From Promethearchaeota archaeon (lineage in GTDB: Archaea; Asgardarchaeota; Lokiarchaeia; Sigyniarchaeales; SOKP01), in the NCBI GenBank assembly GCA_030599585.1, contig JAUVNS010000002.1:345282-409281 (forward strand): a stretch of DNA of 64,000 nt. Reading direction: 5' to 3'. Each line of letters begins with the position of its first letter. The stretch's first letter is position 1. This document shows positions 7,127-64,000 of this stretch, piece after piece. A model generated the notes under the pieces. It had not been told where the DNA came from and made no database searches. It was given only the letters and a program-made list of their open reading frames with translations. The position numbers were made by a program, and so were the translations under genes.

Positions 7127-7263
7127 GATTGATTTTAATTTTACCTAAGTTTTATTTTAATGTTAATATGATATGTCTTAATATAATTCTTTATCAAAAA
7201 TTAATATAATATATATTTTAATAACGATATTTTAAATTAGTTATCGATTGATTATTATGTGAA

Positions 7264-7665: not shown

Positions 7666-7695
7666 TTTTTATATAATATTTAATTACGGTAGATT

Positions 7696-8160: not shown

Positions 8161-8185
8161 TATAGATTTTAAAATAAAAAAAAAA

Positions 8186-8398: not shown

Positions 8399-8555
8399 CC
8401 CTTTGTTTAAAAATCATAGCTTTTAACGTTTAGTTATTATTCTTATTTCGTCGGATCACTTATAAATAAAGAGTATTAATGCTTTGATGATATTAACGGC
8501 TTAATTGCTGACGAATAAATAATATTATTACATTAATATTTAAAAAAAAATTAGA

Positions 8556-9308: not shown

Positions 9309-9363
9309 AGTCGCATCATCTAATAATTATAATATTTCTGTAAAGAATTAATTGTAATTAAAT

Positions 9364-9780
9364 CTAACCATGATATTTCAAAATAAAACTACGGAAAGAT
9401 TCTTTAACTTCTTGAGTTATATGATGCTCAATATCGCATGATATCTTTTCTACGAGTTCGTCATCGGTTATTTTTAGGATTTCTTTAAAGAAAGTCCGAA
9501 GTAGCCCGTGAGTTTCTTCTAACTGAATAGCATATTTTTTACCCTTATCTGTAAGTCTAATTGATTTTCTAGGTTCCCAATTTATCAATTTCTTGTTTTT
9601 TAACTTATCTAGCATTCCAGAGACTGAAGCTGGTTCGACCTGTAGATTCTCTGCTATTTCTTTATTAGTTACCCAACCGCCTTTTTTTTTCTTTGAAATA
9701 TTATAAATGATGTCTAAATATCTTTGATAACTTTCTGGTATCTCGGATATTTCAGATGTAATTTTATCTTTAGCACTCAT
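9364..9780 (-). CDS. DtxR/MntR-family metal-dependent regulator
   Basis: YLDIIY...EIAENLQVEPASVSGML, LTDKG, CDIEHHI. Confidence 0.9.
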   Translation of the reverse strand: MSAKDKITSEISEIPESYQRYLDIIYNISKKKKGGWVTNKEIAENLQVEPASVSGMLDKLKNKKLINWEPRKSIRLTDKGKKYAIQLEETHGLLRTFFKEILKITDDELVEKISCDIEHHITQEVKESFRSFILKYHG

Positions 9781-9985
9781 CGTTTTCTAAATGGAAATAA
9801 TCATTATTATTTTTACCGTGCCAAGTTTCATAACAATTATCATTCTTAAAAATTTATTTATTTTTCTGTATTAAGTACATGAAATATTTATCAATTACTT
9901 ATCACGCGATGTTTTAACCAATTTTTGATAAAAATTATAATAATTAAATCTTTAATAAGAAGTAAAATTTTGAAGATGGGAGCTA

Positions 9986-10561
9986 ATGATAAAAAATTTT
10001 CCTGGTAAATTAGTATTGGTTGTAGGTAATTCAGGCTCGGGCAAAGATTCGATAATGAAGGGAGTAAAAGAAAGATATCCTTCTGATTTAATAAGCCTTT
10101 ATCTTACTCAAAGATATATAACAAGACCATATTCAGACACTGAAGATAATATTGCTGTTACACCAGAAGACTTCAAAATCATGTCATTGCAAGGAGAATT
10201 TGTGTTAGAATGGCATATATATGGTCTAGACTATGGTGTTCCCATAGAAATTGATGAATGGTTGAAAAAAGGTCACCCTGTCCTCGTCAATGTAAGCAGG
10301 TCAATTATAAAAAAAGCTCGTAAAATTTACCAAAACATAGTAGTTGCGTTTATAGATGTTCCTTTTGAAATTACGCTCAAAAGAGTAAAAGAACGCGCAA
10401 GAGAAAGCGGAATAAGATTAGAAGAGAGAATTCTAAGAGCTAGACGAAATCAAGATATTCCTGATGCTGATTTTATAGTTGACAATTCTGGAGATTTAGA
10501 AGATGCAATTAATGAATTTTTAAGCAATCTTATCTATGTTGTTTACGCAAAAGGAAAATAA
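9986..10561 (+). CDS. phnN: PhnN-like ribose-1,5-bisphosphokinase (guanylate kinase family)
   Basis: P-loop GNSGSGKDS, RYITRP, W..YGLDYG, NVSR, RARES. Confidence 0.75.
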   Translation: MIKNFPGKLVLVVGNSGSGKDSIMKGVKERYPSDLISLYLTQRYITRPYSDTEDNIAVTPEDFKIMSLQGEFVLEWHIYGLDYGVPIEIDEWLKKGHPVLVNVSRSIIKKARKIYQNIVVAFIDVPFEITLKRVKERARESGIRLEERILRARRNQDIPDADFIVDNSGDLEDAINEFLSNLIYVVYAKGK

Positions 10562-10623
10562 TTTAGGGAAATAATAGCAAAAAAAGGAAAAATAAGCGTG
10601 TCTTTTTCTTTATTAAAGTAAAA

Positions 10624-10770
10624 TTATAAATTGGCGCAAAAGCCAGAGAACGGACAAACATCGCACTTAGAATCGATTTTTTTGTTAATGTAAATTCCTA
10701 TGATCTTTAATCTTGAATCTGGGGGGTTACGAACAAAAAAATCAGTGTCACAACCAAATGTGAGAATCAT
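10624..10770 (-). CDS. Putative 48-aa Cys-motif microprotein
   Basis: MILTFGCDTDFFVRNPPDSRLKIIGIYINKKIDSKCDVCPFSGFCANL*; CxxCPFxxxC motif; below the ORF-track cutoff. Confidence 0.35.
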   Translation of the reverse strand: MILTFGCDTDFFVRNPPDSRLKIIGIYINKKIDSKCDVCPFSGFCANL

Positions 10771-10852
10771 TGTTCAGTCGATATTGAGGAACAGCATACG
10801 AATGTTCCCGAAACTGTTTAAGGAAATAAATTAGTAATAAGAGAAAGGATAG

Positions 10853-10953
10853 GGCTCGGTACGGGAATCGAACCCGTCTCTAGGGATTCACAGTCCCCAA
10901 TACTATCCATTTTACGGAGCTAGCTTTCTAAACCCCTCTATACAAACCGAGCC
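10853..10953 (-). tRNA. tRNA-His(GUG) with encoded G-1 and a 28-nt D-loop intron (about 10910-10937)
   Basis: Acceptor GCTCGGT/ACCGAGC with G-1:C73; anticodon arm GGGGA-CTGTGAA-TCCCT; T-arm ACGGG-TTCGATT-CCCGT; extra 28 nt in the D-loop; no encoded CCA. Confidence 0.92.
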
Positions 10954-11056
10954 TTAGTTACAGTTTATAATATTACCCACTAAAAAAATCTTTTGAGTCA
11001 AGAACAAAAAAATGTGTAGTTAAAAAAAAATTAAAAAGCGCAAGAAAAATTTAACC

Positions 11057-11917
11057 TCATATAATAGTAATAGAATCTTTTATTAAAGCGTCTGGAATTG
11101 ATATTAAAGGGTTTCCTTTTAATTGTAATTGATTTAATAATTTTAACTCGACGATAGAGCTTGGTAATTCTTTTAACTTATTCCCCCCCAATTTCAGAGT
11201 ACCCAACGATTTCATCTTTCCAATTGTGGTGGGTAATTGTTCCAAACAATTATTTGATAAGCAAAAGTAGCTCAAGTTTTTGAGATTTCCAACCGACTCA
11301 GGTATTGATTTCAACCGATTGTTTCTTAGTGTTGTTTCAGTTAAACCCTCGAGCCTGCCGAAACCTTCAGGCAGTTTTTCCAACTTATTGTTCTTCAAGT
11401 AAAAGGTTTTTAGAGATTTTAGTTCCCCTATTGCCTCAGGTAGCGCTTTAAGACGATTACTGGACAAAGCTAAATGGTGAAGATTTATTAAACATCCAAC
11501 TGAACTCGGTATTGAAACGATGTTGTTTTCGGCCAAATTTAGGCTATGCAGTGAGGTGACTTTTGTTAGAGGTTCAGGAAAAACTCTTAACCTGTTACCG
11601 GCTATACTGAGAACTTCTAAGAATTTCAGTTTTTCGATTGCAATGGGGATAATTCCGATTGCATTTCTATCTAAATCTAATTCTCTTAACTTTGAAAACT
11701 TCCAAACAACAAGAGGAATTGAGGATAACCGACATGATACCAAACTAAGCTCCTTGATATTCCCGCCTTCAATCTCGAGGAAGATGCGACTCGAATTACC
11801 GTCTCGCTTTTTTTCGAAATTATTGCTTATCAAATTGTCTAATTCCAAAAGGTCATAGTATTCTTGCGAACTTAACCGCTCTTTACCCTCAAAATCTAAA
11901 TCTCTTATGTTTTTCAT
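11057..11917 (-). CDS. Leucine-rich repeat protein (about 9 23-aa repeats), candidate immunity protein
   Basis: Repeated LxxLxLxxNxLxxLPxxIGx; no signal peptide; starts 78 bp after the giant ORF's stop. Confidence 0.9.
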   Translation of the reverse strand: MKNIRDLDFEGKERLSSQEYYDLLELDNLISNNFEKKRDGNSSRIFLEIEGGNIKELSLVSCRLSSIPLVVWKFSKLRELDLDRNAIGIIPIAIEKLKFLEVLSIAGNRLRVFPEPLTKVTSLHSLNLAENNIVSIPSSVGCLINLHHLALSSNRLKALPEAIGELKSLKTFYLKNNKLEKLPEGFGRLEGLTETTLRNNRLKSIPESVGNLKNLSYFCLSNNCLEQLPTTIGKMKSLGTLKLGGNKLKELPSSIVELKLLNQLQLKGNPLISIPDALIKDSITII

Positions 11918-11995
11918 AGGTAAATAAAAAAAAGTAATTTATGATAATTTAATTATAGCTGTGCCAAAATTTAATAATTTGCGATTTTGGTGTTT

Positions 11996-14900
11996 TCACA
12001 TCAAACCTCGACTTTCTAATTTTTGTCTTATGTCTTTTATGATGGAAGTGACCCAGTCTTCTGTAATCCATTTCTTATCGATCATCTGTTGAATAGTGTA
12101 AGTCTCCCCTCCATGGTTCATCTTAAGAAAATCTACCTTTGAAGTATCGACTACCCACTTCCCGTTCTCAAACACATATCTATTAGGGCCTTTATAGGAA
12201 TATGCTATTCTGTCGTTATTTTCCCATTCGTTGACAAATTCTATAAGGCGTTCTATATAGAGATCTTGAGCGGATTGTTCCCAGTACGATGGCGGCCTTG
12301 CAGCTTGGAAATCATTGCGCATCATACGCATTCGAGAATAATAATCTAGATTTTTCCTCGGTTCCAAGCTTGTGAATTTGTAATGCAAATCCCCCATCAT
12401 AATAAGATCCATTACGTCGTTTACCGTTTTATCGAAGTCAATGTGATGTCTAAATTTATTATTTTCGACATCATAGTTTTGGATTCCCTCTCCACGCCGC
12501 CCAGCTGGTAATAAACCTCCTTGATAAAGGAGTAATTCAACCCAATGCTTAGCTATAGTTGCTACTTTATAAAAATCGTCATGATAATCAACTTTTGTAG
12601 AATCAAGCAATTTTGGTTCATATCTAAGGTAAATATCATGAACCCCAGGATAATTTCTTTGATTGTCGGCATAAAAATCTCTAAAAGTTTTTTGCATAAG
12701 TATAGCTTGACCTTTCCTAATAGATTTGCTCAAGTCTGATACGAAATCTTCGAGGTTGTTAACTACACCCATATTATTTATATTCTTAACTTGTCCAGAA
12801 AGATATGAACTAGTTGTAGACGCTACCGTTCCTAATCCAATTCTATTATTGATCTCTGATACATCTAAGTATATCGATCCATGATATATATCAGATAGAT
12901 GCCAACTAGCAAGCAACATTACTTTTTGAAGAGGTTTGACTTCTTCATTAACAAGAAAACTGTTAGAAGCGCAGTATCTATTAATGGCTAATAAGGCTTC
13001 TTGAACTGATCTAGCTACTAACTTAGATTCTATACTATCTGAAATCCTAGATTCGCCCAAATTCTCTAACATAAATTCAGCAGACGATTTCCTGTATAAA
13101 CCGTAAATCATTCTGAGTAAATGTTCGGTTTTGACTACGCGCCCTAGTACTTGGGATCTTGAAAAAAGTCCGAAAAATTCGTTTAACCTGTTAATCGAAG
13201 GCCCGTGACCGTCCCTATTGGCAGGATCATGCTGGATTGCAAGCCTAAGATCCCCTAATAGTTTATCTACGTCAGGATTTTGATTCTGTAAGCCAATTTG
13301 TCTTCTATAATTCATTAATAATTCTTTAAATGCTTTCTTTGTTTCCTCTGTAAATTGTGGATCTTGATCTACACTAAATATCCATTTGTAAAGCTGGTTA
13401 TCAGTCCATAAGATGTTTACTCCGTTCTCTAAAGACAAGCGGGTAGTTCTAAATGCATCTCGACGTTGATTCAATGCTATAGCAAGCGGTCGCTCCTCAG
13501 TAATGCTTAAAATGTTTTTAATATCATTGAGTAAGATGTTCGTAGGATGATCTTCCCAATTTTCGTAACTATGGAAGTAATCAATAGTAACAGCCACTTC
13601 CGCTACGTAAATTTTACTGTCGATGTTATGATGGTTTTCTTCTAGCCAATCTGCAAGATTAGTAACGCGGTCTACAGGAATGGAAATGAGTTGAAAATCA
13701 TCGGAAATTATATACATCTTATAATTGCCGCTCACACCGAAATAAGTCAAAATCTCGTTTAATTTGTCTAAAGTGCTCATATCTGCTCTAAAAGCGTTCT
13801 GAACTAAAGAACGAGAGGCTTGGCTCTTTTTATGAATTAACACAAAATTGGGATCGTAGAATTCTAATCCGAACATATCTAAGAATCGCAAATTTGTAAC
13901 CCCTTCTTTAGCAAGTGCGTCTTTAATGATTTGAATTGTCTCTTTTTCTGCTTTTTGGACTCCAATCTTATTGTAATTTTTCTGGATTTGTCTAAATAGT
14001 TCTTTATATCCTCTAAATCTCTCTTCTTTTAATAGATACTTCTCGATCCATTCGTTAAAATATGGATCAAAGGCAAGTGTGTTAAACTTGTTAGCGAGAT
14101 TTTCTTTTTGAGTTCTACTATCGGGATTAATCTGACGAAGAGCAGTAACCGATGGAATGTTTTCTTTATTGGAGCCTTCTTGCGGTGCCTTAAATAGCTC
14201 GTGAAGGGCTTGAGGATCAACTTCCGAGGGTTGCTTTGTTTCTTGTCCAAAGTTTATGGTGTCAATATCTCCGACAATACTTATTAGGTTCTTTTTTCTT
14301 CTGTTGTGTCGCCACGACTTGAGATTAGCCATGGAAAGAGGCGACGCTTTTATTGAGCTGCCGACCATTTTCTTCAGACCGGAGAGCGCAGCGAAACTGA
14401 AGGTGCCGAAAAAGACGGCTGGAAGCGTCATAAACAACCCTTTAAGGAAGTTGCTTTCTAACAGCTTGCCCAACGAGCCCTTATTTTCTGCTGCTTCTTG
14501 CATTGCTTTCTGTTTTTGTTCGAAATCGGAGTTTATTTGCTGTTGAATCTCTGTCATTGACTGACCCGAAACGAGACCTTGTATAAGAGTAATTACGCTT
14601 TTTGAACTTATTGGAGCGCCTAGAACTAACTGGCCCATGGCTCCTTTTACTTCTCTGGCGGAGGTTGATAACGAAGACAACCAGAATCCTAAGTCGTCAG
14701 AGCCGCCTAATATACTTACGACGTTTTCGATTAGTGCTTCTCTAAATCCGTCTTGAATTATTTCTTCGAATACTTCTTGTATTGCACCTTTAACCGCACC
14801 TGTAAGACCTCCAAGAAGCGATTTTGATTGCTTTGCAATAAGCATCGCAACGCCTTTAGCTCCTGCCTCCGACGCTAATTTGCCTACGGCTGCTTGAGCC

Positions 14901-17900
14901 GCCCAAGAACCAAAATACGCTAAGGGAGCGCTTATTAACGTAGACCAGAACGTTAGAGTCTCCGTATAGGAAATCTCTGAAATCATATTAGCACTAATTT
15001 CTGCGAATGTATACTGACTGAAATAGTCCATAATGGTGTAAGAAGTAGCTTGAGCTAAAGCAAGTCGACTGGTTTCGTCGGTGGTGTCGGGAATAAATCT
15101 TTCGAATTCGATTCGAATTTTGTAGAATATAGTCTCATCGACCAATTTGCTAGCCCACGATTGAGCCAAGAAGTCTTCGAATCCTGAATATTTTTCCGAA
15201 ACGAGCGCTTCTATAGACTTAGTAAAGTATAGATTACCTCCATCGACCGTGTAGTCAGAATCGTTAACTAGTATGTCTTGAGCAAAATAATCGTTTAGGT
15301 GAACTTCTTCTTGAACAACGTCGATAAACACGGACGTAATGTTGTATTCGAAACCGTTATCGTTAAGAGGAACTTTCGCTCCATACAGAGCCGATTCTAC
15401 GTCGTCCATGGCATAAGCGTTAATCCCAGAAGTCTTATCGTAATCCTTACATCGAACGGTCACAGTAAGTTTTCCTAGCGCAGGTTGGATTTGGTCGAAT
15501 CGAGCTTGGCTTAGAACCACGGGTCGATACAAAATCGATAGCGGTAAGATAGTTTCTTGGATGGTGCTATTGATAAATTCGTAGCTCGGTGCTCCGTCTA
15601 TGCAATTAGGCTTTATAGCATCGAACGATCCTCCTGATTTTTCCATGACGATGGTCTCAAGCGCGCCTAAGGTGTTGAACGAGTGTAAGTTGTAATCGTT
15701 AAACAAGAATTCGGTGTTGTGGTAAGTGTAAAATGGTTTGGTGTTGTAATAAGGGAGCTCGCTTGTCATAAGTAAATAATCTAAATTGATGTCATCGTAA
15801 TCGAGGGCGGTGTAAGAATCAGGATTGGAACCTCCCATGTCCCAAATGTTTTCCCATAATAAATCTAAAAATCCTCCAAAAGAGTTCCATATTCGAAGTG
15901 GATTTGGAGGACTTACTAACAACTGCCCGGTATAAGTAGTCCCAGAATCCTTGCCACTCACGGTAGCGTAATATCCTCCTGGATGAGCTAATAGCGCTGC
16001 TGCCATCGTGTCTTGAAGAACTCTATCAAAAAGATTTTTTTCGTTGAGCGAAACCGGTTCTTGTGGTCCGCTTGAACTTGGGTAAAATGTGTCGGCCCGT
16101 TCTATGGATTGTGCCATGTGAAGTTTTCGATCGATGTTAAATTTTGTCATTAAAGTATATATAACAAGGTAAGTTAGCGTTCCCGCAGCTCGACCCGCAG
16201 CCTCTCCCGCTGCAATAGCTGCAAGAGTTCCTACGCCTAATGTCGCCGCTATACCAGCAGCAGTGACCATCGACGCAACTATAGCTGCTACTACCGCGCT
16301 CGCAATAGCCGCAGTTGTTGTCATAAAGACTTGTTCTATAATATCACCTACTAATTGTTCTCTGTAAGTCTCCCACGCTCTTGCGTAAGATTTGTGTCTA
16401 ATTTCGTAAAATAACTCGGTAAATTTAGGGTTTTTTTGGCTCGTTTCAGAAGTTTTGTAAATTTCGAAGATTTGATCTTTTGGTTTGTATTCTTTCCAGA
16501 ATTTATCGTCTTCGTTTAAAATATCGAATAACAAATCGTTATTTTTTAAATTGTCGAAGTTATAAATCCAATCAGAACCAAACATTTCAGTCTTTCTTCC
16601 GAGGTTGCTAAAATCGGTAATTGTGTTTTCTACTTGATCTAACTTTTCGTAGGGAGCAAAATCGTGTATGCCGTCGTAGTTCATTCCTATCGATATTACG
16701 TCGTATTTAGGAATTACTAATCTGCTTACCGTGTATAAGTTGCCAACTATGTACACTGTCTCGTAATAACCGTTAAGATCTGAATCTATGAAAAAGTAGC
16801 TACCTGAAGTTTTAGCAGATCCGTCCAAAAACGCGTCTTTATCAGAAGTGTAATAAACTTGACCGTCTGCCGGAGTGACCATAGCTCCAGTCACCTCAAA
16901 TTCAACCCAACCGTCGTTCTCTACGCTAGATTTAGATATTTTACCGAAATCGTTGTATAACGAATACCTATTTGGGATGCGAAGAATAATAGTCTTTTCG
17001 AAATAATTTGTGGAATAAGAAATTTCTCCATCTTCGTCAAATACTTGAAGAGAGTCGTATTTTATTGGAACGTTGTCTGAACTCCAAGTTGGACCCGTCC
17101 AAGTGATGTTTGCGGGACTCGCGTAAGGAAGTTCAGGATCGAAAATTATTTGTGATTGGGCGTTAGTGTCGATGTTAGTGACCGAGTGTTGATTGGAAAC
17201 ATCTTCAAAGAACCCTTCGACGCTTTCAACTTCGTTGTTTTTAAAGTCGTCCTTGTAAACCCTTTGTTCTTCAACCTCTCCTTCGTTATAATCAATAAAG
17301 GTTAAAGTCGAATATTCAACGGTGTCTACGTACGAAGTAGTGACATTTTCAGTAAATTTTCTATAAGTTGTGCTCAAAGTAGGAGCGTTCATGATGGCCC
17401 CAAGGTTTGCCGTGCTAAAATCGTTAGAATCGAGGTGTTCTTTCGTAAGAAATTCGTTAAATACAAAATCGTCTTTTGATCCAAACAAGGAAGCGGCGCT
17501 TTTCATTATATATTCGCCTAAAAAGATTAATACGTTCTGAAGTTTTGCAGCGAGTATTGTTTCTTTAAATTCCGTTACCTCGTAATATATGCTAACTTCG
17601 GTAGTCTCAAAGTTGGTAGATTCGTCTACCGTTCCGTCTCGGTCTTCGTCTACTTGCACGCTGTAGAAATTACTTTTAACGTGTTCTTCCTTGTTTATTT
17701 GCCTCTGCGTCGATTTCTGAGCCCAATAGTCAACATCTGGAAGCATCATCTTAGAAAGCGTGTAAAGCATTAACGGTATTATCAAGACTGATAATAATAG
17801 TTTGGCCATGTTAGGATCGTAATTGGCGAAAGTTTGATCGTCTACATCGAACCAATCTGTTCTTAGTTTTTCTTCTAAGTTTTTAGAGGCTTTTATCTCT

Positions 17901-20900
17901 CGATTCTCGAAATCTTGAATGACCGTATACCAATAAATCTCGCCTGAACCTTCTGGATCGTCTATACCGTATTTAATTATATCTGGAACGCCATCTCCAT
18001 CAATGTCGATCGTTTGCTTGTAATCGGATTCTCCGTCCATGTCAATGTCTGCTACATATATTATGGAGGTATCGTCGTAATATACTTCGAAATTATCGAA
18101 TTTTTCAGATGTGTAACCAATAAATTGACTTTCAGAACTAATGTCGGGGTTTCGAGAGAAACTAATTGATTCAAAAGAAGTGCTTTCGCTGGTAATAGTA
18201 TCAGATCCTTCAGCAAACAACGGAACGCCCGATTCAGATCTGAAATTGTAATCAATATCTACCGAACTGTAAAAAGTCTCGGTCTGATCTGATAAGTAGG
18301 TTTGGTTAAAATTATCGAGTAAAAATATTTCGGTATAGGTAGAAATTGGGGCGTACGAATAATTTACTATTGCTGTAATTTGATCAAAAACGTCCAGAAG
18401 ACCGTCATCCGAGTTCAGATCAATAATTGTTAAGTTGTTAGTTGTTTCGTCAAAATTTAGGCTAAAATTGACGTTATTTGTCAACATTTCCGTGTCAAAG
18501 GTAGGCGTTAATCCGATCACTTGATACAAACTAAGGTTAACAAAGTCGTTTTCGAAAGTAAGGTTGCCAAGGTCAAAAGTATGGGTGTATTCAGAAATTT
18601 CGGTGTATACTGAAAAAGTCTCGTAATAATATTGGACTACTCGATATTCCGATTCTTCTTTAAAAGAGTAAGCGATATTTTCGTAGGAGTGCGATGTGCT
18701 AAACTCTGAAAGCCAATCGTAATGCTCAGGTTTTAATAAGTAGTTGCAATCGTATACCGCCCTAATCGAGTCGAGATCGATGTTTTGCTCGTCAATTCGA
18801 ATAGATTCGGTCCAAGACGTGTTTGTAGCGTATTCAAAGAATAGGGTTGAATTAGCCTCGATTATTAAAGGTTCTTCAAATTCCATACCAAAATATTCTG
18901 GGTATTGGTTAAACGATGGGTTCCAGGTAAATGTATTGTTTGAAGGTTCAAAGTGTAATTGGTGATCGTTTCCGGTAATTCCTGCCGAATAATAATTGCC
19001 TTCCTTGTCGTATATGGTCAAATAATCTAACCAAGTACTATCAAGGTAAAACATTGGCAATTTATCGAGAACGAGTTGATAGGAATCGTCTTCAGGATCG
19101 GAATCGGATGTAAACATTTCGTGCTCTGAATATTGCCACACCCGACTATCTACGCTACCAAACGCGTCTGATGCCTCGTACGATTGTTCTAAAAGCACAA
19201 TTTCGCTTATAGTCAACTCGTATGTAGGGTTAGGCACAGAAATAACTATATTACTGAAGTCTAACTCGTCAACTCCTTCTGAACTAAATAAGGAAGTTAA
19301 GTTAAGCTCTATCTTAACCGCCTTCACTCTTCCGTTAAATTCGGTATCAAATGGAGTAATTTCTAATGGAACTTGGTAATAATAATCGGCGGTAAATTCG
19401 GAATAAGAACCGGTAGAATTGGCGTTAATTAACAACAGCTCCGCTTTAGGAAGGTCTGGGTGCGAATCGTAGTTATATCCCTTGCTTTCGAAGTAAGCTT
19501 TACCGATACCTACGGCTATTCCTCTCTTTACTGGAGAGCTATATTTTAGGACTATCACTTGATCGTCCTTAAAGCTACCCCTTTCGCTGGTATTGTTGTT
19601 GAAATAAATCGTCGGAACGTGTAAAGTGTAAATATCGTTTTCAAATGTATAAGTTATGTTATTTGAGAAAGAAAGAAGTTCCAACATGTCGTTAAATACG
19701 TAAGCTAGATGAGTCCCGTTAACCATAAGGTCACTTTCTAACGCGATGTGCATGTATTCGATTTCATCTTCCATAAAGGATACGAGTTCGCTATCCCATT
19801 CAACAGTTTGTATTCTGATAATACCTTTAAGGTTGTCTTGAGAGTATTTTTCGTCGCTCCTAAATTCTGGAGTAAATCTTATCGTTTCTAAGGTGTTTGT
19901 GCTAGTAGGCAAATCAACTTTTAGGGTGTAATCTACCATAATTAATTCTTCAGCGGTGATAACTTTTGTTAATTGCGTCATTAAGCCTGAATTATCGAAA
20001 AGTTCGATCGTGACGTATTCTAAACTTTCTATGTTTTTTATATTGGTGTCTAAATACAAAACAAGGTAATCTCCGTTGTGTAGTCCTGTAAGCATATCTT
20101 GATCGTAATTCTGCAATTCTTGAGAAACGTTGAATTCTAATTGATCTCCTTCTTTAAGATAGGCAGCAACTTGAGACGCTTGACAAACTATGTTCTGCAA
20201 GGTAGATTTGTTCTCGTTCATGAAGTATGGAGCGTCTAAGTTAGGTATCACGCTAAAATTTTGTGCGTTTATAATGTTCCAACTTGTTACGTTTAATGTT
20301 GATGTAATTCCTTCCGTGGGATCGTACGAGAATTGGTAACTATTTAGTTCTTTATCGATATTATTTGATATAAACGATACGAAGAATTCTTTGTTCGCCC
20401 GAATTGAAGATACCAAACTGTTTTCATCGTTTTTGATGGTTATTTTTCTAGAGTCAACATCTACTGAATAGTGAATAGAATCTAAGAATATCATCTTGCC
20501 TCTTGCGTTGAAATAAAACACGCTTATCGCCTCCTCTCCTTCAGCTTCGATAATATCGACGTAATTATCTAATTCTGGGCTCATCATATCGTATACATAT
20601 CCTGAAACGGAACTATCAAAAAATTCAGAGCTTATCTCGAATCTCTCTTCGTAGTAATCTCTGCTATTTAGCCGATAACTTAAGTATAAGTTGTATATGT
20701 TGTCGATCGAAAGGCTGTATTCGAAAGGTGTAATTATGGAACCTCCGCTTAATTTTCGGTATTTTTCCCGATAAGTGTTTAACGAGTCTAAAGTCGTCTC
20801 AAATAGGTTTGTCCACGGATAAGTAACCATTATGAAGTGTTTGCGATCGATTAACCCTGGTTGAAGTTTATATTTGTATTTTAACTCAACATTTGTGTTA

Positions 20901-44900: not shown

Positions 44901-47900
44901 GATTCGGTATAATTAACGATTATGTAGAGATGATCAATAAAGGCAGCAGCAGAGATGTTGCTATCTACTACAATATCTACTCCAAAGCCGGGGCTTTTTA
45001 TTTCAGCAACTGTCCACGAAGTACCCCAGAGATTGTTAGAAGCACCATAGGTAGTGTAATAATTAGTATCTGTTGTGCTCCAAGGAGTAGCATAAGCTTT
45101 ATTGTCTCCTTTTAGCACCGTTGAATTTCGAAGCCGTACTAAATAATCGGTAATAGAATTAGTTACATTGGAATATTTGTCTATTTTAACCGTGATACCT
45201 ATAATTTCTGCTCTATCAGGAATAGCGCTGAAATTGAAATTTGTAAATCGCAACACATCAGATTCTGCGTTAGCACCTACTCCCGTAGATTGAAGCAATA
45301 CCGCATCTATATTCCACGTATCCAGTATTGAATCAGAAGAAATATCAGAACCTGCAAATCTTAAAGTGAATGTGTCACTTGAAAGTGATACTGAAATATT
45401 ATTCCACGAGGAAGCGTTTAAATCAGAAGCAATGGTAAACCAGTCAGAGCCCGTCCAATAGGCCAAACTAATATTCTCGGAACCCGAAAAAGTGCCCGTC
45501 TTGATGCATAATTTTTCTACGTCCGCAAAATCCGTTACTCCTGTGAACTGTACTTCTAAATCCATCTGATAATCCGAAGTACTAGGTGCTGGATTAATCG
45601 CGATTTGTCCGTACGAGGCACCATCAGCGAGCGCGAAGGCTACACTTACTATCCCAGTACTTCCAGCAGTTGCTAACGTCTTATTGCCCCACGAACCACC
45701 TACCCCAACATCACCAGATCCTGTTTCTATATATTCTTGTTCAGACCAACCCGTACCAGTAACATCAAAGGGATCGAGATCTGCGCCGTCCGAACTAAGC
45801 ACGTAAAGACACAGTGCGTCGTTTGTATCCGTGATTACAGCAGGAATATCAACGCTCCCTGCCGATCTAACAGAACCAGTTGTGGGGGTTCCACTAATTG
45901 GATCGGATTCATCAGCGCCTTTTATTAACAAGCAATACCCCCATAAATCATCAGAATCGATAGAATCAATGGTCACGGTTGGATTTTCGTTATTAGCAAT
46001 CTTGTAAAAAGCTGCAACATAAGCGTCAGGAGTTTTTCCGCCAACATTGAAAATAGTTGTCCACCCAGACTCGTCAGAAAATCCTTGACCATTATCGTCT
46101 GAATCGCTTCCTGCAAGAATTAGCAATAAATCACCATTTACGGTGGCACTAGGGATATCTAAAGTAAGCGTCGTACCAGTGTTAGTATTATTAGTGTATT
46201 CTGCAATAAAAGGAGCTCCGGATGTTGCACCTGCTACCAATTCCTCAGAGAGCAAATCGTAAGTATCATCTGTTGCTTTCATACTCTCAAAATTACTATG
46301 CCAACCAGAAGACGAACTGTCCATATCAGACACGTTGTTATTAACATATTCTTCGATTTTAACGTCGTTAACTGTAAGGTTAGAGTACGCGTAAGAATTC
46401 GTTTGAGATTGAGCGTAGGCAGTGTCGAACCAATTAAATCCTCCTACTTCTATCGAGTTTATTGCTTGCGTAGAAGATATTGTTCCGTCATCAACAGAAC
46501 CAAGGTTTCTATCTATGTTTGCTGTAGCACCAGCGGTCATCCAACTTGAAAATGTTGCACCACCTCCAGCCAACCTATCGATGTTTAAGGCGATTTGAGG
46601 CGAATTAAAAATCGAACTTAGCTGGGCTTCAGTTAAATTTAGCGTTAATAAATAATCGTAATTTGCGGTTAAATCTAGCGTGTTGATTAAATCACCGCGA
46701 GAATTATATATTTTTACTACAGGAGGATTGTTGTTAACCACGAAGGGAATGGAGTGTGAATTATTGTACGCGTTGTTATCGTTAACGAAGCTCATATTTA
46801 GGTTGTTGACAGATTTGGTAATGTTTACGATTAAATCCGAGATTTCAATTATATTGTCAAAAACGCGAGTTATTACCGTAATAACGATTTCTTCGTCAGC
46901 AATTCGATTGTTTCCTTGGTATAATACAACTATTACGTCTATAAAGGAAAAATCGGTGCCAGAAATTGAGTATTTAGATGAGTCAAGTTTAATGTCAATA
47001 TCTAAACCCCCGTCAGTAAAATAGATGTGATCTCCTTCCGATACTACGTTAGAAAGTTGGAAGGTTTCGTATCCAGTGCTTATCCAAACCCACGTAATAT
47101 CGTTATCTACGGGAAGAACTTTTAGGTGCAGATCGATCATACCGTTTTGATCTAACCCGTAAATTGAACCGCTCTCTAACCCTTCAATTACGAAATTTTC
47201 GTGGTTGTTATAATCTTTTACAATCCAATAATTTCCTTGGTATAATGTAATGGAGTTAGACAAATCGTCGTACCCAATGAACCTTATTGTGATATTATCG
47301 TCTCTTAAGTTAATAATGTCAAAATTTATTTCTGCTAAAGAGTCTACTGCTTCGAAATCTCCATATTTTATCCATTCTGCCGTGGTCGGAGTATCGTACT
47401 GATATTCAAGGGTTACTTTATCAAAATCGGTATCGGTCGAGTTAATAGCCAAGGTAATTACGTTATCTTCTACTATATCGTAAGCCGATCCTAAAACTAA
47501 GGAATATTCCGACCCTGTAATGAGTTCTAAATCAGGACCTTTTATGTCTAAAATAGTTGGATTTGCAGAATAATTATACAAGTAAGAGAGTTCTCCGAAG
47601 CTATAAGACAAGTTAGCTTGAAAAACGAAATTTACGTCGTATTTGTCTGGAGATAGGCCTTTATTCGAAATCCAGTCTGAAAGCTCAGACAGTTCGATTA
47701 ACCAATAATTAGAATACAAATCAGAATAACTTACTTCTTTCAAAAAGTCGATATCATTAGAATAATTTACGAAGAGGTTTAAAGAAGAAAAGTGCCATTC
47801 AAATCCATCGATCGGAACGACTCCAAGTTGAGAATTGTGATTTATCTTTCCGTTTTTATCCAAATAGGTGAAATTTATTAGATCGTGGAAGTGTTCGATC

Positions 47901-50900
47901 CCAAAATAGGTGTTATAATATTCGTAAACCGTATTGTTGTCGATATCGGTCGCTTTACTAATAAAATACCAATTGTCGGAATCTGGGAGGTCTCTCGAAT
48001 CCAATAAATAAGAGTAATAAGACGAATCGTAGCTAAAACTAGCGAGGAAATCCCAATCGATTTCTGATTGAGTTTGGAAGTCGGGAAGCGTTCTCGAGAG
48101 ATAAAATTCCATCGATTCTACTTCGTTACTGGTAGCGTTTACCTCAAAATTGAGGTATCCGTCAATTTTTTCTCCTGCGGAAGTAATTATCGTCCAACCG
48201 CCTTGTCCGTTTTCTTTTGCAACTCCGGGAGAAATCGACACGATGCGCTTCCCCGTGTGAGCTTCGATCTGGGCGTCAGTAAGGCTAGCGTTAAACACCG
48301 ATATCTCGTCGATAATTCCTGTAAAACAAGAATAATTTGCAATTTCGCCTCCAACGGTCAAATTACCTCCGGCTTGTAGGTAACCACCGCCGTTCCACGG
48401 TTCATTAATTCCACCAAGCGCGTCTCTACACCAAGTTTCTCCAATTAACACGTCAATATCGCTCTTATTGTAACGAAGAGCTATGTAAGTCCATTGATTG
48501 AGTGGGATTGCTCCACTAAAACCGTACGTTCCCATCGATTCGAAGTTAGTTGTGTTTAAATAAAGTTGTAAAAAACCACTCTCGTTGACTCCAATTTCTA
48601 TGTTTCCTTCCTTTGCAAAAAATACATTTTTAACTCCGTTATCGCTTAGGTTTGAAGTAAAAACCGTGGGATACAACCAACCCGCAACTACAAAAACATC
48701 GTTAGAATCGCCTAAAGTATTGTCTAGGACGTCACCAAATTGCACATAATCAAAATCTTTATATTCGGGATCTCCAGAACCTTGTTGCGATTCTGGAGTG
48801 GTCGAATTAAATTTAATCTTCATTCCATCTAGATCAGTTTGGTTCAAAGTTAAACTTGACCACGTGTAAGTGTTCCATTCTGGGGTTGAAGCCATACTTA
48901 ATGGTTTTTCTCCTAACCAACCTCCGCAGTAGACATCTACCGTCGAATCTATGGTAGTTTCGTTTCCAAACACCTTTATTGAAATCTCAGTTACGTTTCC
49001 ATTCTGAACGCTAAAAGAACTCATGTTTAACTCGTCAACGATGTAAGGTCCTTGAAACGTGCTAGAGGTAAATATATACCCGCTACTCGTGTCTGGAGGA
49101 GGTACTTCCTCTACTGATTCGTTGAGTAAATTAAAATGATCGTCCGAGGTTGAAGCGTTCCATTGAGCAATAACGTCCTCGTTTGGAAGAACGATACTGT
49201 TGTTTATTATTGTACTCGATCCTGAATATGTGTAATAGACTATCATCTCAATGTGGTCGATATAGGCGCTCCGGGCGGTTGATGTGTCTTTGTTATCGAC
49301 TTGAAATTGAACTCCGAACGTATCACTATTTACAATTGAAGGGGTTAAACTCGCGCTCCAGTCGTCTTCCATGCCACCATAGCCCACATACTGGTCACTT
49401 GTAGGCCAATACGACACCAAATCTGGTTTACCGATCCCTTGTATAACCTCTCCAAGTATTAAATCTACCGTTCTATCCATAATTGTATTCGTTGCTGACG
49501 CGTGTCTATCGATTCTTACGTGAATACCGGCAATATCTGCAGTGGTAGGAATATCGAACCCGAAGTTGGAAACTCGTAATATATCGCTTTTTTTCCGCTT
49601 TGCAATAAGATTAGCGAGTGCATACGCGTCATTCGGCGTCTTTGCGTTATCGGCAGGAATCCAATCGGTACCACCTACTTGCATGTTTGCCGCGGTTCCA
49701 GGGTCATAATACCCTTCAGAACCATCACTACCACCAACACCTTCGTATTCGTAGGACACGTTAGCGAAGGTAGCGTAAATGGTAGAACCAATTGTCTCGA
49801 TTTGTTCGTATTCAAGAGTTCCTACTCCGTCAAATTCTAACCCATATGATTCGCCTTGAGTGCTTGTCCAACTTACATCGCCTTCTAAGGTTCCTTCCAA
49901 GTTATGAATCTCGTCAAATGTGCTTATTCCTAAATTTTCGTTGAACAACGCCCAGAAATCTAAAGAGCCTGGGGGAGTATAACTGCTAGTGTGAAGTTGT
50001 AATAAATCGTATATTGAAAAAGGCCAATCGGGGTATAAATCTTCGTTGTTATCGAGAAAATATCTTCCGTGGCTAGAATCAAATTCGAGTCCTGCGTATT
50101 CTACGTAATCCATCTGATTGTAAAAACCATCGCCTAAATACGATAACTTAACGAGCATATTTTGTTCGATAGAGCCGTATACTTTGTGAGTATAATAGAA
50201 ACTACCGTCAGAACGAGTTTTAACTGTAGTAATTTTTTCAAACCGATCGTTTGATTCGATGAATAACTCTAAATCGTCAACGGGGTAAGGTTCGTGGATA
50301 CTATTAGCAACTTTTCCATCGAATACGATTGTCCACGAGCCATCGTCTGGATGTTCAAAGGTGTATACAGCACCGTAATACTTGGAATCTAATTCTTCTT
50401 CAAAAATTTTGTTTGATATTACCGTCAGATCGTCTTTATTTATCTCAATCTGATACGCTTCAGGAATAGAATTTTTGAACGAAAAACCAGACAAAACCGA
50501 ATAACTCACCTTAGCTTCGTAAGAACCTGGTTGTAAATTTAAATCGTTAAGGTTAATTTCTGCTATCAATTCAGAATCGTCTAAAGGTCCGTTTAGATAA
50601 GGGGACAGAACCGAATACGATTTTTTAGCGTAAAATCCATCAATAGTCGGAACGTCTATGGGTACTAAATCAACTCGAATTCGAGAAGCTTGTCCGAACT
50701 TGGGAGAAATTCTTGTTTTTATCACGAATTTGTCGTTGATTGTAAGTTCGTCTAACGATTCTAAACTTGGATGGTATTCCAAGCTATCAAAATCGATCGA
50801 ACTCGTCGATATTCTCTGTTCTTGAGATACGGACGCAAACTCGTAAAATGGATTGTCCACGGACCACATGGATTGTATTCCGAACGTTATTGGAAAAATG

Positions 50901-62274: not shown

Positions 62275-62429
62275 GCGATCTTTCCTTAAACAAGTACTAA
62301 TTATACAATTGTAAATATAAAATTTAGTTCCTTGATACGATTAATGAAAATATAATGGGTTTAATAAAAAAAATATAAAAAAAAATAAAATATAAATAAA
62401 ACACGCTTTATGTTTTTGTCTTATAACCT

Positions 62430-63302
62430 CTATGTGTAGTTTTCGCAAGCTTTCGAGTCGATCCGCCTCAAATACGGGTTTTTGTAGTACTGACAAGAAA
62501 TAATAGCGTCTTTACAACTCGGACATGTCAGTTGAAGCCCGTCCTTACACTCTTTACAGTATTTTGTGTCGTCGTCGAGTTCTACGATAATTTGTGGTTT
62601 TCTTATGAGTTCCTTGGGAGTTTTAGCTTTTTTAAGTTTGATCGTCTCTTCTTTTTTAAATTTCTTAGGTTCTAAAACGATACTTTTTGAAGGTGGCTTC
62701 TTGCCTTCCTTATCTTGTTCTAAAGCTTTGATCTGTTCGAGAACTTTTCGTTGAGAAAGCTTTCGCTTGCTAAATTGATCCACCGTTTTATCTTGTAGTT
62801 TCGCGTCCAAGATATATTCGCCGATCTTCGTTTTAGTTTGTATCGACCTAACCGAAGCGTCGATTTCTTCGGCTTGCACTTGTGCAAATCCAAGTGCAAC
62901 GTTTGCAGTTTGATTTTGTCTGAATTTTTCCGATTTGCGATCGCCACCGCGCCTGTATTCCGGATGTATTTTGAGAAAAGCTCTTTTTTTCAACGCTAGA
63001 GCTTTTGCCTCTTCGGCAGGGTTCAAGTTTTTTCTCCGTAAGTTCTCGTCGATCTCTATAGTAATTTTTTGATATTCAGAAAGACCGATTCGTCTATCGC
63101 ACCTAATTTTACTCCACCCGAGGTTTTTGGCGGAGTAGTACCTTCGCGTGCCTTCTATAACGTTATAATCTTCGTCTACGGTGAGCGGGTTTAATAACCC
63201 GACTTCGCTCATAGATTTCATAAGCTCGGCTAAGTCCCCGATCACTTCCCGGACTCGATTATCGCGTATTTTCAACTTTTCTAAAGGCACTTTTTCTATC
63301 AT
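62430..63302 (-). CDS. ParB-like protein with HTH and C-terminal Cys-rich tail
   Basis: SMSEVGLLNPLTV...VIEGTRRY.SAK.LGW, DENLRRKNL, GGDRKS, AEEIDASVRSIQ. Confidence 0.85.
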   Translation of the reverse strand: MIEKVPLEKLKIRDNRVREVIGDLAELMKSMSEVGLLNPLTVDEDYNVIEGTRRYYSAKNLGWSKIRCDRRIGLSEYQKITIEIDENLRRKNLNPAEEAKALALKKRAFLKIHPEYRRGGDRKSEKFRQNQTANVALGFAQVQAEEIDASVRSIQTKTKIGEYILDAKLQDKTVDQFSKRKLSQRKVLEQIKALEQDKEGKKPPSKSIVLEPKKFKKEETIKLKKAKTPKELIRKPQIIVELDDDTKYCKECKDGLQLTCPSCKDAIISCQYYKNPYLRRIDSKACENYT

Positions 63303-63342
63303 GGTGTTTTTACTCTTGTTGTTTTTGTTCTTTTTTTTTACC

Positions 63343-64000
63343 TCAAAGGAAATGTAATTTTAAATACCTTTTTTGAACTATTTTTAAAGTAGAGAGCAAA
63401 CAGGACTTGTTGTGCTCCATAATTAGGTAATAATCTCCGTTTTTGAAGTGGAGTTCGATGTTTTTCGAATTTCTCAGCAACGGATCGTGGTAGGAGCGCT
63501 CGTTTAAGCTGTATAGTGCCGGAACTAACCCTTCGAAGTTTCTTTTTTGCACGTTTACGATCTTTAAGACTTGGAAGAATGTTTTATCATTTGCTTCCTT
63601 TAGCTTAAACGGTAAAATCTTCTTAAAAAACCGGGCTTCGTGGTTGGAAAACGTGAACAAGTAAAAATTGATTAACAGGTTCAATATTTTCCAGACGGTC
63701 TCGTATAGGTCCAGCAAGTATTTTGTTTTCGTTACGAAAATTTGGTAGACCTGGTTCGATACAACGAGCCCAAAGAACTTAGGAGGGTCTCCTTCTAAGT
63801 CTATAATAGCGTATTTGTAAGGGGGGAACTTTCCTTTTAGCTCGAATTGCCTCGTCTTGACCGTGTCGCCTTCTTTCGCCATCAAAACGACCTCGTTGAT
63901 GGCGTTTATTAAATATTTAATCTCTTTTTGGTCGGATCGGAGCCCGAAATTCATTCCAAGCGTTCCGTAGTTGAGAATTTGTCCAATTTTTGATTCTACT
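63343..64000 (-). CDS. RNase H-like/YprB-type exonuclease-like protein, probably extending beyond the window
   Basis: AIIDLEG (ExoI-like) and MEHNKSCL (ExoIII-like HNxxD with D replaced by C); the frame stays open upstream of the ATG at 63954 to the window edge. Confidence 0.45.
   Translation of the reverse strand, partial: VESKIGQILNYGTLGMNFGLRSDQKEIKYLINAINEVVLMAKEGDTVKTRQFELKGKFPPYKYAIIDLEGDPPKFFGLVVSNQVYQIFVTKTKYLLDLYETVWKILNLLINFYLFTFSNHEARFFKKILPFKLKEANDKTFFQVLKIVNVQKRNFEGLVPALYSLNERSYHDPLLRNSKNIELHFKNGDYYLIMEHNKSCLLSTLKIVQKRYLKLHFL

What the first reader, a model, noticed from the sequence alone, without database searches (positions are those of the whole stretch)
10853..64000. tRNA-adjacent element with a giant gene pointing at the tRNA (aloposon-like, but larger)
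Seen: host-type genes stop at tRNA-His. Beyond it CpG words rise and the genes are mobile-element-like. The element lies on the tRNA's 5' side. Known, from recollection: Heimdallarchaeum 'aloposons' carry giant genes of a few thousand aa and sit at tRNAs downstream of the giant gene. Inference: a Loki-type analogue with a much larger protein. 5'-side placement would mean the element supplies the tRNA's 5' end or promoter.
Basis: partly seen in the sequence, partly recalled or inferred. Interest (0 to 1): 0.7.

Follow-up and report, generated by a model that had tools for sequence, protein, structure and literature searches.

The report
Giant-gene plasmid-like element at tRNA-His
A Loki-type Asgard archaeon carries a large plasmid-like insertion at its tRNA-His locus. 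The insertion brings its own tRNA-His gene and a 13,847-residue surface protein built like a contact toxin. It resembles the Heimdall 'aloposons' only in outline and is not one of them.

Summary
Host genes end at 10561 and CpG o/e jumps from 0.91±0.11 to about 1.43. A 13,847-aa ORF (11996-53539, minus strand) points at a tRNA-His.

In at least 15 relatives the order is kinase, tRNA-His, 150-aa gene. In this genome that locus is split. The other half lies on contig C9 beside a 35-nt host tRNA-His 3' remnant, followed by 33 kb more foreign DNA. Contig overlaps suggest one insertion of about 181 kb (window, C12, C9).

The window's tRNA-His is intact. ARAGORN missed a 28-nt D-loop intron; the true span is 10852-10953. 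The gene is inverted and has a non-host acceptor type, so it lies inside the insertion.

The backbone is a 272-aa gene, an AEP Prim-Pol, a 226-aa gene and a ParB-like gene. It recurs with giant genes in other genera. No integrase, ParA/MinD or att repeat was found. No similarity to giants outside the Loki family was found, and the giant gene is single, so this is not an aloposon.

The giant protein has a swappable HNH-like tip and a co-varying LRR partner, the layout of a polymorphic toxin. Earlier scan reports reached the same reading for the two paralogues in this genome.

The parts
9986..10561 (+). Last host gene (guanylate-kinase-like). The left junction of the insertion lies directly after its stop codon (10561/10562).
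   Evidence: Pfam Guanylate_kin. Conserved with its neighbours in 38 of 41 genus genomes. Similarity to relatives ends at the stop codon.
10562..10851 (.). About 290 bp of non-host spacer between the kinase gene and the tRNA's 3' end.
   Evidence: It does not match the kinase-tRNA spacer of relatives. Its only weak matches lie beside LRR genes on non-syntenic contigs of G004, G014 and G056.
10852..10953 (-). Intact tRNA-His (GUG) with encoded G-1 and a 28-nt D-loop intron (10910-10937). It is inverted relative to the ancestral gene and has the acceptor type GCUCGGU/ACCGAGC.
   Evidence: Rfam 34.8 bits unspliced. One search found the 5' exon. In one search the spliced form gives a canonical 73-nt tRNA-His with the anticodon at position 34, as in relatives. 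One search gives the orientation and intron positions in relatives.
11057..11917 (-). LRR protein of 286 aa, the cognate partner (immunity-like) of the giant protein's C-terminal tip.
   Evidence: Pfam LRR_8 1.6e-31. It is 62-66% identical wherever the same tip occurs, including orphan tip+LRR modules, and 31-40% identical beside other tips.
11996..53539 (-). Giant gene of 13,847 aa. Layout: basic N-terminal region (aa 1-650), 6-7 TM helices (657-891), an ectodomain of about 11,000 aa with about 160 N-glycosylation sequons, hydrophobic segments at 11,911, 12,412-12,443 and 13,034-13,052, then a sequon-free variable C-terminal region ending in an HNH-like domain.
   Evidence: No Pfam match. Topology and sequons. 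Paralogues and mosaic identity. Homologues of 11,000-20,619 aa in relatives. Tip motif, model and fold hits.
53523..53738 (-). Conserved 71-aa basic protein just upstream of the giant gene.
   Evidence: 74-76% identical copies upstream of both paralogous giants (C23, C47) and a 44% copy in G236.
53810..55636 (-). 608-aa surface glycoprotein with an N-terminal hydrophobic segment, a sequon-rich body, and a C-terminal PGF + TM + Lys-rich tail (Loki-CTERM-like).
   Evidence: Alignment of three paralogues. The C47 paralogue hits NCBIfam Loki-CTERM below threshold (E 0.013). Conserved beside giants in G236.
55997..57539 (-). Small putative wHTH regulators (55997-56344 and 56967-57539).
   Evidence: Weak Pfam HTH_5 and HTH_45 hits near their cut-offs.
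59950..62274 (.). Conserved small backbone ORFs and a second ParB-like gene (60293-61135, plus strand).
   Evidence: 60-78% identical, in the same order, on C23. PHROG ParB-like hits for 60293-61135.
62430..63302 (-). ParB-like protein (ParB_N plus a zinc ribbon).
   Evidence: Pfam ParB_N. PHROG ParB-like 1.8e-23. NCBIfam parB_part 3.8e-12, below its cut-off.
63343..64000 (-). The 203/226-aa backbone gene, cut by the contig end. Upstream of it in the operon come the Prim-Pol (753 aa) and the 272-aa gene, on the repeat R and contig C12.
   Evidence: 98.5% identical to C23:1466-2209. Contig-end overlaps. Prim-Pol motifs and fold.

Best explanation
Window 10562-64000 is the left 53 kb of a large plasmid-like element integrated into the chromosome of a Promethearchaeota (Loki-type Asgard) archaeon. 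It sits between a guanylate-kinase-like gene and the gene that follows tRNA-His in all relatives.

Shown:
- The host locus is split between two contigs.
- Both break points abut CpG-rich foreign DNA.
- The host tRNA-His survives only as a 35-nt 3' remnant at the far junction (C9:309694-309728).
- The window's tRNA-His is a complete, intron-containing, inverted gene of a different acceptor type lying inside the foreign DNA.
- The element has a conserved backbone: a 272-aa gene, an AEP Prim-Pol, a 226-aa gene and a ParB-like gene.
- Next to the backbone lies a conserved cassette: a Loki-CTERM-like glycoprotein, a 71-aa protein, the giant surface protein and an LRR partner.

Inferred:
- The insertion is one stretch of about 181 kb (window, a 1.75-kb repeat, C12, then the C9 end).
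- It replicated as a plasmid-like replicon (Prim-Pol, ParB, own PCNA-like protein, ligase, RadA, helicases).
- It is now fixed or needs recombination functions in trans.
- The only detectable tRNA-His is on the element, so losing the element would be costly.
- The giant protein works as a contact-dependent polymorphic toxin, with the exchangeable HNH-like tip as effector and the LRR protein as its immunity partner.
For: Empty site. Kinase(+), tRNA-His(+), 150-aa gene and 316-aa gene are contiguous in at least 15 genus relatives. In this genome the 150/318/220/605/310-aa block is on C9:303492-309571, next to a host-type tRNA-His 3' remnant whose trailer is nearly identical to G010's.

Composition. 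CpG o/e is 1.29-1.54 in the window's foreign part, against 0.91±0.11 in host DNA. The foreign end of C9 gives 1.13-1.49 and C12 mostly 1.2-1.6.

Joins. C12 end to rc(C9 end) is 125/125 identical, including 2 SNPs that differ from the rival C10. The C24 end, repeat R and the C12 start overlap. C12's first genes are the same backbone neighbours as in G236 and G259.

tRNA-His..

Prim-Pol. DxD, SGxRGxH and D motifs. Profile hits to PriS, E about 0.007. Foldseek hits to Prim-PolC, LigD-Pol and PriS, E 4.5e-5, probability 1.00.

ParB-like genes..

Distribution. The backbone plus a giant gene recurs in G236:C7, G259:C95 and G134:C57. The Prim-Pol is patchy, in 13 of 134 family genomes.

Toxin-like layout. 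Paralogues and orthologues lose similarity 60-330 aa after the last hydrophobic segment. The tip has the motif RHH...D..DLILLG.LH. Its model has pLDDT 84. The best VIA-align matches to the core domain are HNH nucleases: Cap5 Z 6.0, IscB, McrA, GVE2, retron and Cas9 HNH. Orphan tip+LRR modules occur in G020:C94 and G014:C246. Imm-LRR immunity proteins and HNH tips are recognised classes of polymorphic toxin systems (PMC3482391).
Against: - No integrase, transposase-like gene, ParA or att direct repeat was found on the inferred path.
- The phasing at repeat R is ambiguous. C24 could instead continue into C51 and C49.
- There is no read evidence for excision or a circular form.
- The left junction is not a clean att site. 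The host spacer and the tRNA 5' part are deleted.
- Fold support for HNH is weak (Z no higher than 6, Foldseek nothing).
- No toxicity or export has been shown, and simple topology would place the tip in the producer's cytoplasm.
- Some homologous giants sit in host-like DNA (C47, G016:C77, G018).
Confidence: 0.7

Rival explanations
1. It is a true, homologous member of the aloposon family: a Loki-type aloposon whose twin giants fused or expanded into one gene, integrated by the same mechanism at a tRNA.
For: The outline is shared: a giant gene co-directional with a tRNA just downstream and several conserved genes upstream. ParB-like proteins are also reported for aloposons (PMC11529989).
Against: - There is one giant gene and no tandem pair.
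- No MinD/ParA lies on any foreign contig.
- The giant's conserved stalk and C-terminal module matched only the Loki family f1, plus one genome of family f16 for both queries and one genome each of f2 and f31 for the C-terminal module, among 400 phylum genomes.
- Nine other loci of this giant family have no tRNA downstream.
- The tRNA here is the element's own gene and not a host att site.
Confidence: 0.06
2. It is not a discrete mobile element. It is a chromosomal variable island at a recombination hot spot, built up by gene transfer and homologous recombination, with the giant toxin cassette as ordinary accessory cargo.
For: - There is no integrase, no att repeats, and a deletion at the left junction.
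- The kinase allele itself looks recombinant, G013-like.
- The C47 copy and some orthologues sit in host-like DNA.
- Other relatives carry different extra genes between the kinase and the 150-aa gene.
Against: - A conserved replication and partition backbone (Prim-Pol, ParB) is linked to the giant gene across genera and one other family.
- There are two or three paralogous copies with near-identical stretches in one genome.
- The composition is uniform and foreign over more than 150 kb.
- A related 30-kb copy carries a tyrosine integrase and a NikA-like gene.
Confidence: 0.18
3. It is an assembly or binning artefact: an extrachromosomal element or a second strain wrongly joined to host contigs.
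For: The genome is a 52-contig MAG with 8.9% contamination. Contigs break at element repeats.
Against: Two independent long contigs (356 kb and 310 kb of host DNA) each run continuously into foreign DNA at the two sides of one ancestral locus. No intact empty-site copy exists in the assembly.
Confidence: 0.05

Closest known systems
Aloposons of Ca. Heimdallarchaeum (Wu et al. 2022, PMC8813620)
   Same: Both are integrated Asgard elements with very large genes, a tRNA gene just downstream of the giant gene on the same strand, a block of conserved genes upstream, and a ParB-like protein (reported for aloposons in PMC11529989).
   Different: - One gene of 13,847 aa, where aloposons have tandem genes of 3,000-6,000 aa.
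- No MinD/ParA ATPase.
- No sequence similarity detected outside the Loki family.
- The tRNA is the element's own inverted gene and not a host att site.
- tRNA adjacency is not shared by other members.
- A far larger element (at least 87 kb, probably about 181 kb) with a Prim-Pol.
Archaeal integrative plasmid-like elements with Prim-Pol replication proteins (comparison from general knowledge, e.g. the pRN1/pTN2 types, not checked here)
   Same: An AEP Prim-Pol plus a partition-type protein as backbone, integration at a tRNA locus, patchy distribution, and foreign composition.
   Different: No integrase on the large copy, much larger size, its own PCNA-like protein, LigA-type ligase, RadA and helicases, and a 41.5-kb cargo gene.
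Bacterial polymorphic toxin / contact-dependent inhibition systems (CdiA-CT/CdiI, Rhs; Zhang et al. 2012, PMC3482391)
   Same: A long surface protein with a conserved body and a variable C-terminal tip, an HNH-like tip, a partner gene directly downstream, orphan tip+partner modules, and the LRR class of immunity proteins.
   Different: - An archaeal host with no outer membrane or known secretion partner.
- An N-terminal multi-TM anchor.
- About 11,000 aa of glycosylated ectodomain.
- No Pfam toxin or pre-toxin domain.
- Toxicity untested.
Large integrated or extrachromosomal archaeal elements (Borgs and jumbo ECEs of Methanoperedens; PMC13444090)
   Same: A size above 100 kb, own replication and repair genes, integration into the host chromosome, and large genes.
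   Different: A different host phylum. No shared marker genes were tested. No terminal repeats or free form seen.

Membership tests
Aloposon (Wu et al. 2022) | Tandem genes encoding two 3,000-6,000-aa proteins (Otus and Ephialtes) | tested here: not met
   There is a single 13,847-aa ORF. Its neighbours are 71, 608 and 286 aa.
Aloposon (Wu et al. 2022) | Integrated at a tRNA site lying downstream of the giant genes | tested here: inconclusive
   A tRNA-His lies 1 kb downstream on the same strand. However, it is the element's own inverted gene with foreign DNA on both sides, and the host tRNA remnant is at the other junction. Nine other giant loci have no tRNA.
Aloposon (Wu et al. 2022) | Four consecutive upstream genes including a MinD/ParA-like ATPase | tested here: not met
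   PF01656 and PF13614 hit only host contigs, and none on C24's foreign part, C12, C9's end, C23, C47, C49 or C51. A different four-gene block (272 aa, Prim-Pol, 226 aa, ParB) is present.
Aloposon (Wu et al. 2022) | Homology of the giant proteins to Otus/Ephialtes | tested here: inconclusive
   Two parts of the giant searched in 400 phylum genomes matched almost only family f1.
tRNA-integrating tyrosine-integrase element | Tyrosine integrase gene on the element | tested here: not met
   PF00589 hits only C31 and C32:210086-210580. The latter lies on a related element of about 30 kb, not on the inferred path.
tRNA-integrating tyrosine-integrase element | Direct repeat of a tRNA part at both ends | tested here: not met
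   The remnant on C9 and the intact gene in the window are in inverted orientation. No other tRNA-His fragment exists in the genome.
AEP Prim-Pol replicon | AEP catalytic motifs and fold in the backbone protein | tested here: met
   D295/D297, S340-G-x-x-G-x-H346 and D444 are invariant in 15 homologues. Foldseek hits Prim-PolC, LigD-Pol and PriS with probability 1.00. The gene itself lies just beyond the window on repeat R and C12.
Polymorphic toxin system (Zhang et al. 2012) | Conserved body with a variable C-terminal domain among close relatives | tested here: met
   C24 and C23 are 79-45% identical up to aa 13,108, then unrelated. Orthologues break at about aa 13,160 or 13,310-13,385.
Polymorphic toxin system (Zhang et al. 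2012) | Cognate partner (immunity) gene directly downstream, plus orphan tip+partner cassettes | tested here: met
   The LRR gene co-varies with the tip. Orphan modules occur in G020:C94 and G014:C246.
Polymorphic toxin system (Zhang et al. 2012) | The tip is a toxin, here an HNH/EndoVII-fold nuclease | tested here: inconclusive
   The motif RHH...DLILLG.LH is present. VIA-align hits to HNH nucleases reach Z 3.4-6.0. There is no Pfam, PDB-sequence or Foldseek match. Activity cannot be tested here.
Polymorphic toxin system (Zhang et al. 2012) | Export and delivery of the tip to another cell | not testable with these tools
   The only indirect sign is that the last ~1,250 aa carry almost no glycosylation sequons (3 between aa 12,601 and 13,300, none after 13,301), whereas the ectodomain has about 160.

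The most novel reading that the evidence does not exclude
Prim-Pol/ParB elements carrying 11,000-20,000-aa swappable-tip surface proteins form an undescribed family of Asgard (Loki-type) mobile elements that can exceed 150 kb. This copy has destroyed the host's tRNA-His and supplies the only remaining copy from its own DNA. That would make the element hard to lose, a form of addiction by tRNA replacement.
Probability: 0.3. Interest if true: 0.8.

Novelty: new variant of a known kind. Interest (0 to 1): 0.62.

Why it matters
Few mobile elements of Asgard archaea are known, and aloposons are the only published ones with giant genes. Here a second, unrelated element type links a replication and partition backbone to genes above 40 kb in the Loki lineage. 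It gives a concrete integration site with an empty-site control.

The host may now depend on an element-borne tRNA gene. [quoted passage not shown]

The giant-toxin reading itself was already reached by earlier reports of this scan on the two paralogues. The new parts here are the element context, the tRNA story and the test against the aloposon definition.

Tried and rejected
- Partial tRNA-His repeats. blastn-short and regex searches over the whole genome found only the C9 3' remnant and the window gene.
- I first read the window tRNA as degenerate, from ARAGORN's 69-nt model and 34.8 Rfam bits. I withdrew this after finding the 5' exon and the D-loop intron.
- Integrase and ParA/MinD. None on the element.
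- Pfam on the whole giant protein gave nothing significant. A PDB sequence search with the C-terminal 1,198 aa and with the tip profile gave nothing. Foldseek on the tip gave nothing.
- IMG/VR scans with the Prim-Pol and ParB found no relatives.
- CRISPR spacers against the element could not be sought. A simple repeat scan found no array in the genome.
- The flanks of the C47 copy gave no clean empty site, because the right flank is accessory DNA.
- No convincing att repeats were found for the related C32-C10 element. Its right end diverges from C9's about 45 nt before the tRNA remnant.
- The public-genome scan with the 608-aa profile returned one locus, which served only to name the phylum.
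- An inversion between the host and element tRNA genes was considered and rejected. The C9 junction lacks the element-type 5' part and core.
Full report
**What is in the window**

The window is the last 64 kb of contig C24 of a 4.85-Mb, 52-contig genome, so it ends at a contig end. The closest public locus names the organism as a Promethearchaeota (Loki-type Asgard) archaeon.

Positions 1-10561 hold ordinary genes: a DeoC-type aldolase, a zinc alcohol dehydrogenase, a DUF3795 protein and a guanylate-kinase-like gene. These are conserved in 38 of 41 genomes of the genus.

From 10562 on, all on the minus strand, come:
- a tRNA-His;
- an LRR gene (11057-11917);
- a 13,847-aa ORF (11996-53539);
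- a 71-aa ORF and a 608-aa ORF.

After these come small wHTH genes, two ParB-like genes and a 203-aa gene cut by the contig end.

CpG o/e is 0.97 before 10561 and 1.43 after it, against 0.91±0.11 (maximum 1.15) in 71 host windows of the same contig.

**The tRNA**

ARAGORN calls a 69-nt tRNA-His at 10852-10920 with a poor D arm and an acceptor mismatch. Rfam gives only 34.8 bits. A pattern search found a proper 5' exon, GGCTCGGTTTGTATAG, at 10938-10953.

Removing the 28 nt between the two parts gives a canonical 73-nt tRNA-His plus G-1, with the anticodon at position 34, as in relatives. Several relatives carry an intron at the same D-loop position. The gene is therefore intact and spans 10852-10953. 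It is the only tRNA-His I could detect in the assembly.

**Empty site and the second junction**

In at least 15 relatives the order is kinase(+), tRNA-His(+, often with one to three introns), a 150-aa gene, a 316-aa gene, and further on a 605-aa gene.

Here, similarity to relatives stops at the kinase stop codon, and the tRNA-His that follows is on the opposite strand. The 150/318/220/605/310-aa block lies on contig C9 (303492-309571). It is preceded by only the last 35 nt of a tRNA-His (C9:309694-309728). That remnant and its trailer match the close relative G010.

The acceptor type of the remnant (...CGGGCCC) is that of the host clade. The intact gene in the window has GCUCGGU/ACCGAGC. Beyond the remnant, C9:309729-343120 has the same CpG-rich composition as the window's right part, and it is patchy in the genus.

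Two long contigs thus run from host DNA into foreign DNA at the two sides of one ancestral locus. I take this as strong evidence for a real insertion and against a chimera.

**Extent**

Contig-end overlaps give a graph.
- The C24 end shares 119 exact bp with C23:1552, in reverse.
- The C23 start continues the C51 end.
- The C12 start shares 76 exact bp with C51:10388, in reverse.

This defines a 1.75-kb repeat R, the 3' two thirds of a 753-aa gene, with two ways in and two ways out.

The C12 end overlaps rc(C9 end) by 125/125 bp, including two positions that differ from the competing C10 start.

The simplest chromosome path is: kinase, window 10562-64000, R, C12 (92.6 kb), C9 343120 to 309729, the tRNA remnant, then the 150-aa gene. 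That is about 181 kb. The alternative phasing at R (C24 into C51 and C49) cannot be excluded. The minimum is 53.4 + 33.4 kb.

C12 begins with the same genes that flank the backbone in other genomes, which favours the simple path.

**What the element is**

The window's 53.5-64 kb part is syntenic with C23:1466-9310, and partly with C47:72145-74280.

Upstream of the 203/226-aa gene lie a 753-aa gene and a 272-aa gene. Fifteen homologues of the 753-aa protein share invariant DxD, SGxRGxH and D motifs. Their profile weakly hits primase small subunits. A confident model (pLDDT 87.6) matches Prim-PolC, LigD polymerase and PriS. It is an AEP Prim-Pol.

With the ParB-like genes this makes a replication and partition backbone. 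The rest of the inferred element encodes:
- a PCNA-like protein, a LigA-type ligase and an XPD-type helicase;
- ArdC-N and two RadA/Rad51 proteins;
- UvrD and DEAD helicases;
- methyltransferases and Mrr.

The same order (272 aa, Prim-Pol, 226 aa, ParB, then the 608-aa and 71-aa genes and the giant) recurs in G236:C7, with the Prim-Pol and giant also linked on G259:C95, both in another genus. The Prim-Pol is also linked to a giant gene in G134:C57, in another family. The Prim-Pol is patchy, present in 13 of 134 family genomes.

A related copy of about 30 kb (C32 end plus C10 start) carries the genome's only non-Xer-like tyrosine recombinase, a NikA-like gene and Mrr.

On the large copy I found no integrase, no ParA/MinD and no att direct repeat. 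I also found no relatives in IMG/VR.

**How it got there is unresolved**

The left junction removed the host spacer and the tRNA's 5' part. The right junction lies at or near the anticodon loop. The two tRNA-derived sequences are inverted relative to each other, so they are not the att pair of one integrase event.

An 11/12-nt inverted match, TAGGGAA(A)TAA, sits at both junctions. It could be chance.

The kinase allele is closer to G013 than to the otherwise closest relatives. This hints that the flank was exchanged by homologous recombination.

**The giant gene**

The protein is laid out as follows:
- a basic N-terminal region;
- six or seven TM helices (aa 657-891);
- an acidic ectodomain of about 11,000 aa with about 160 sequons;
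- three or four hydrophobic segments between aa 11,911 and 13,052;
- a final part nearly free of sequons (3 between aa 12,601 and 13,300, none after 13,301).

The genome has two further full-length paralogues, of 13,902 aa on C23 and 14,550 aa on C47. Relatives have ORFs of 11,000-20,619 aa.

C24 and C23 are mosaic (79, 70, 66 and 45% identity) and unrelated after aa 13,108. Orthologues break at about aa 13,160 or 13,310-13,385.

The last 800 aa have only 49 relatives among 1.84 billion proteins. The last 250 aa share the motif RHH...K...D..DLILLG.LH.

The model of the tip (pLDDT 84) has no Foldseek match. Its best VIA-align matches to the core domain (residues about 50-245) are HNH nucleases: Cap5 at Z 6.0, then IscB, McrA, GVE2, and retron and Cas9 HNH domains. 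The other rows mostly match only the first 50 residues. The Z values are low, so this is consistent with HNH but does not prove it.

The LRR gene is 62-66% identical wherever this tip occurs. That includes two orphan tip+LRR modules without a giant body (G020:C94, G014:C246). It is 31-40% identical beside other tips.

HNH tips, downstream immunity genes, orphan cassettes and Imm-LRR proteins are all features of polymorphic toxin systems (PMC3482391). Earlier reports of this scan reached the same reading on the C23 and C47 paralogues.

**Comparison with aloposons**

Wu et al. define aloposons by three features:
- tandem genes of 3,000-6,000 aa;
- integration at tRNA sites downstream of the giants;
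- four upstream genes including a MinD/ParA-like ATPase.

Here the first and third fail. The second is met only in outline, because the tRNA belongs to the insertion and nine other loci of this giant family have no tRNA.

Searches with the stalk and the C-terminal module in 400 phylum genomes hit almost only one Loki family. I could not confirm that Heimdallarchaeum was in that sample.

[quoted passage not shown] This case fits that sentence. A preprint notes that archaeal proteins above 10,000 aa are mostly from Asgard archaea. I found no paper that describes this element or this protein family.

**Verdict**

This is a large integrated Prim-Pol/ParB element with a giant polymorphic-toxin-like cargo gene and its own tRNA-His. 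It is analogous to an aloposon but is not a member of that family.

Noticed in passing
L039-L058 (tRNA-His loci of relatives), e.g. L044, L047, L050: The tRNA-His genes of this genus carry zero to three introns at non-canonical positions (D loop, anticodon stem/loop, variable/T region). ARAGORN missed most of them.
   Followed up: partly
window 9986-10561: The kinase-like gene is 85.7% identical (aa) to G013 but about 73% to G002, G004 and G010. Its two upstream neighbours are 91-94% identical to G002 and G004. This may be a recombination tract next to the insertion.
   Followed up: no
G000:C32:203507-213232 plus C10:1-~16000 (L013, L082): A related element of about 30 kb with the same 272-aa gene, Prim-Pol, 226-aa gene and ParB backbone, plus a tyrosine integrase, a NikA-like gene and Mrr. 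I found no att repeats for it.
   Followed up: partly
G000:C9:309729-343120 and C12 (L071-L077): The element encodes a bacterial-type NAD-dependent DNA ligase, a PCNA-like protein, two RadA/Rad51 paralogues, XPD- and UvrD-type helicases, an mTERF-domain protein and ArdC-N.
   Followed up: partly
G252:C13:~79000-142427 (not fetched): An open reading frame of 20,619 aa belonging to the same giant family. Others of 14,833, 14,557 and 14,473 aa occur in G239, G230 and G214.
   Followed up: no
window 10562-10578 and C9:309729-309747: The two junctions carry an 11/12-nt inverted match, TAGGGAA(A)TAA. It could be chance, a terminal inverted repeat or a recombination core.
   Followed up: no
window 53810-55636; C23:7211-9016; C47:72481-74280: A conserved 600-aa glycoprotein ends in PGF + TM + Lys-rich tail. 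The C47 copy hits NCBIfam 'Loki-CTERM sorting domain' just below the cut-off.
   Followed up: partly
G020:C143:22127-26689 and G016:C66 (L064, L063): Stand-alone ORFs of 1,460-1,520 aa correspond to only the last ~1,550 aa of the giant protein (hydrophobic segments plus tip). Each is followed by the cognate LRR gene.
   Followed up: no
whole genome G000: A simple repeat scan found no CRISPR array. About 370 kb of CpG-rich foreign-type DNA is spread over C9, C10, C12, C23, C24, C32, C47, C49 and C51.
   Followed up: partly
L045, L046, L048, L054 (G002, G004, G048, G015): Four relatives have an extra 520-535-aa gene between the kinase gene and the 150-aa gene. G002 also has a 582-aa gene there. 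So this locus varies in other ways too.
   Followed up: no
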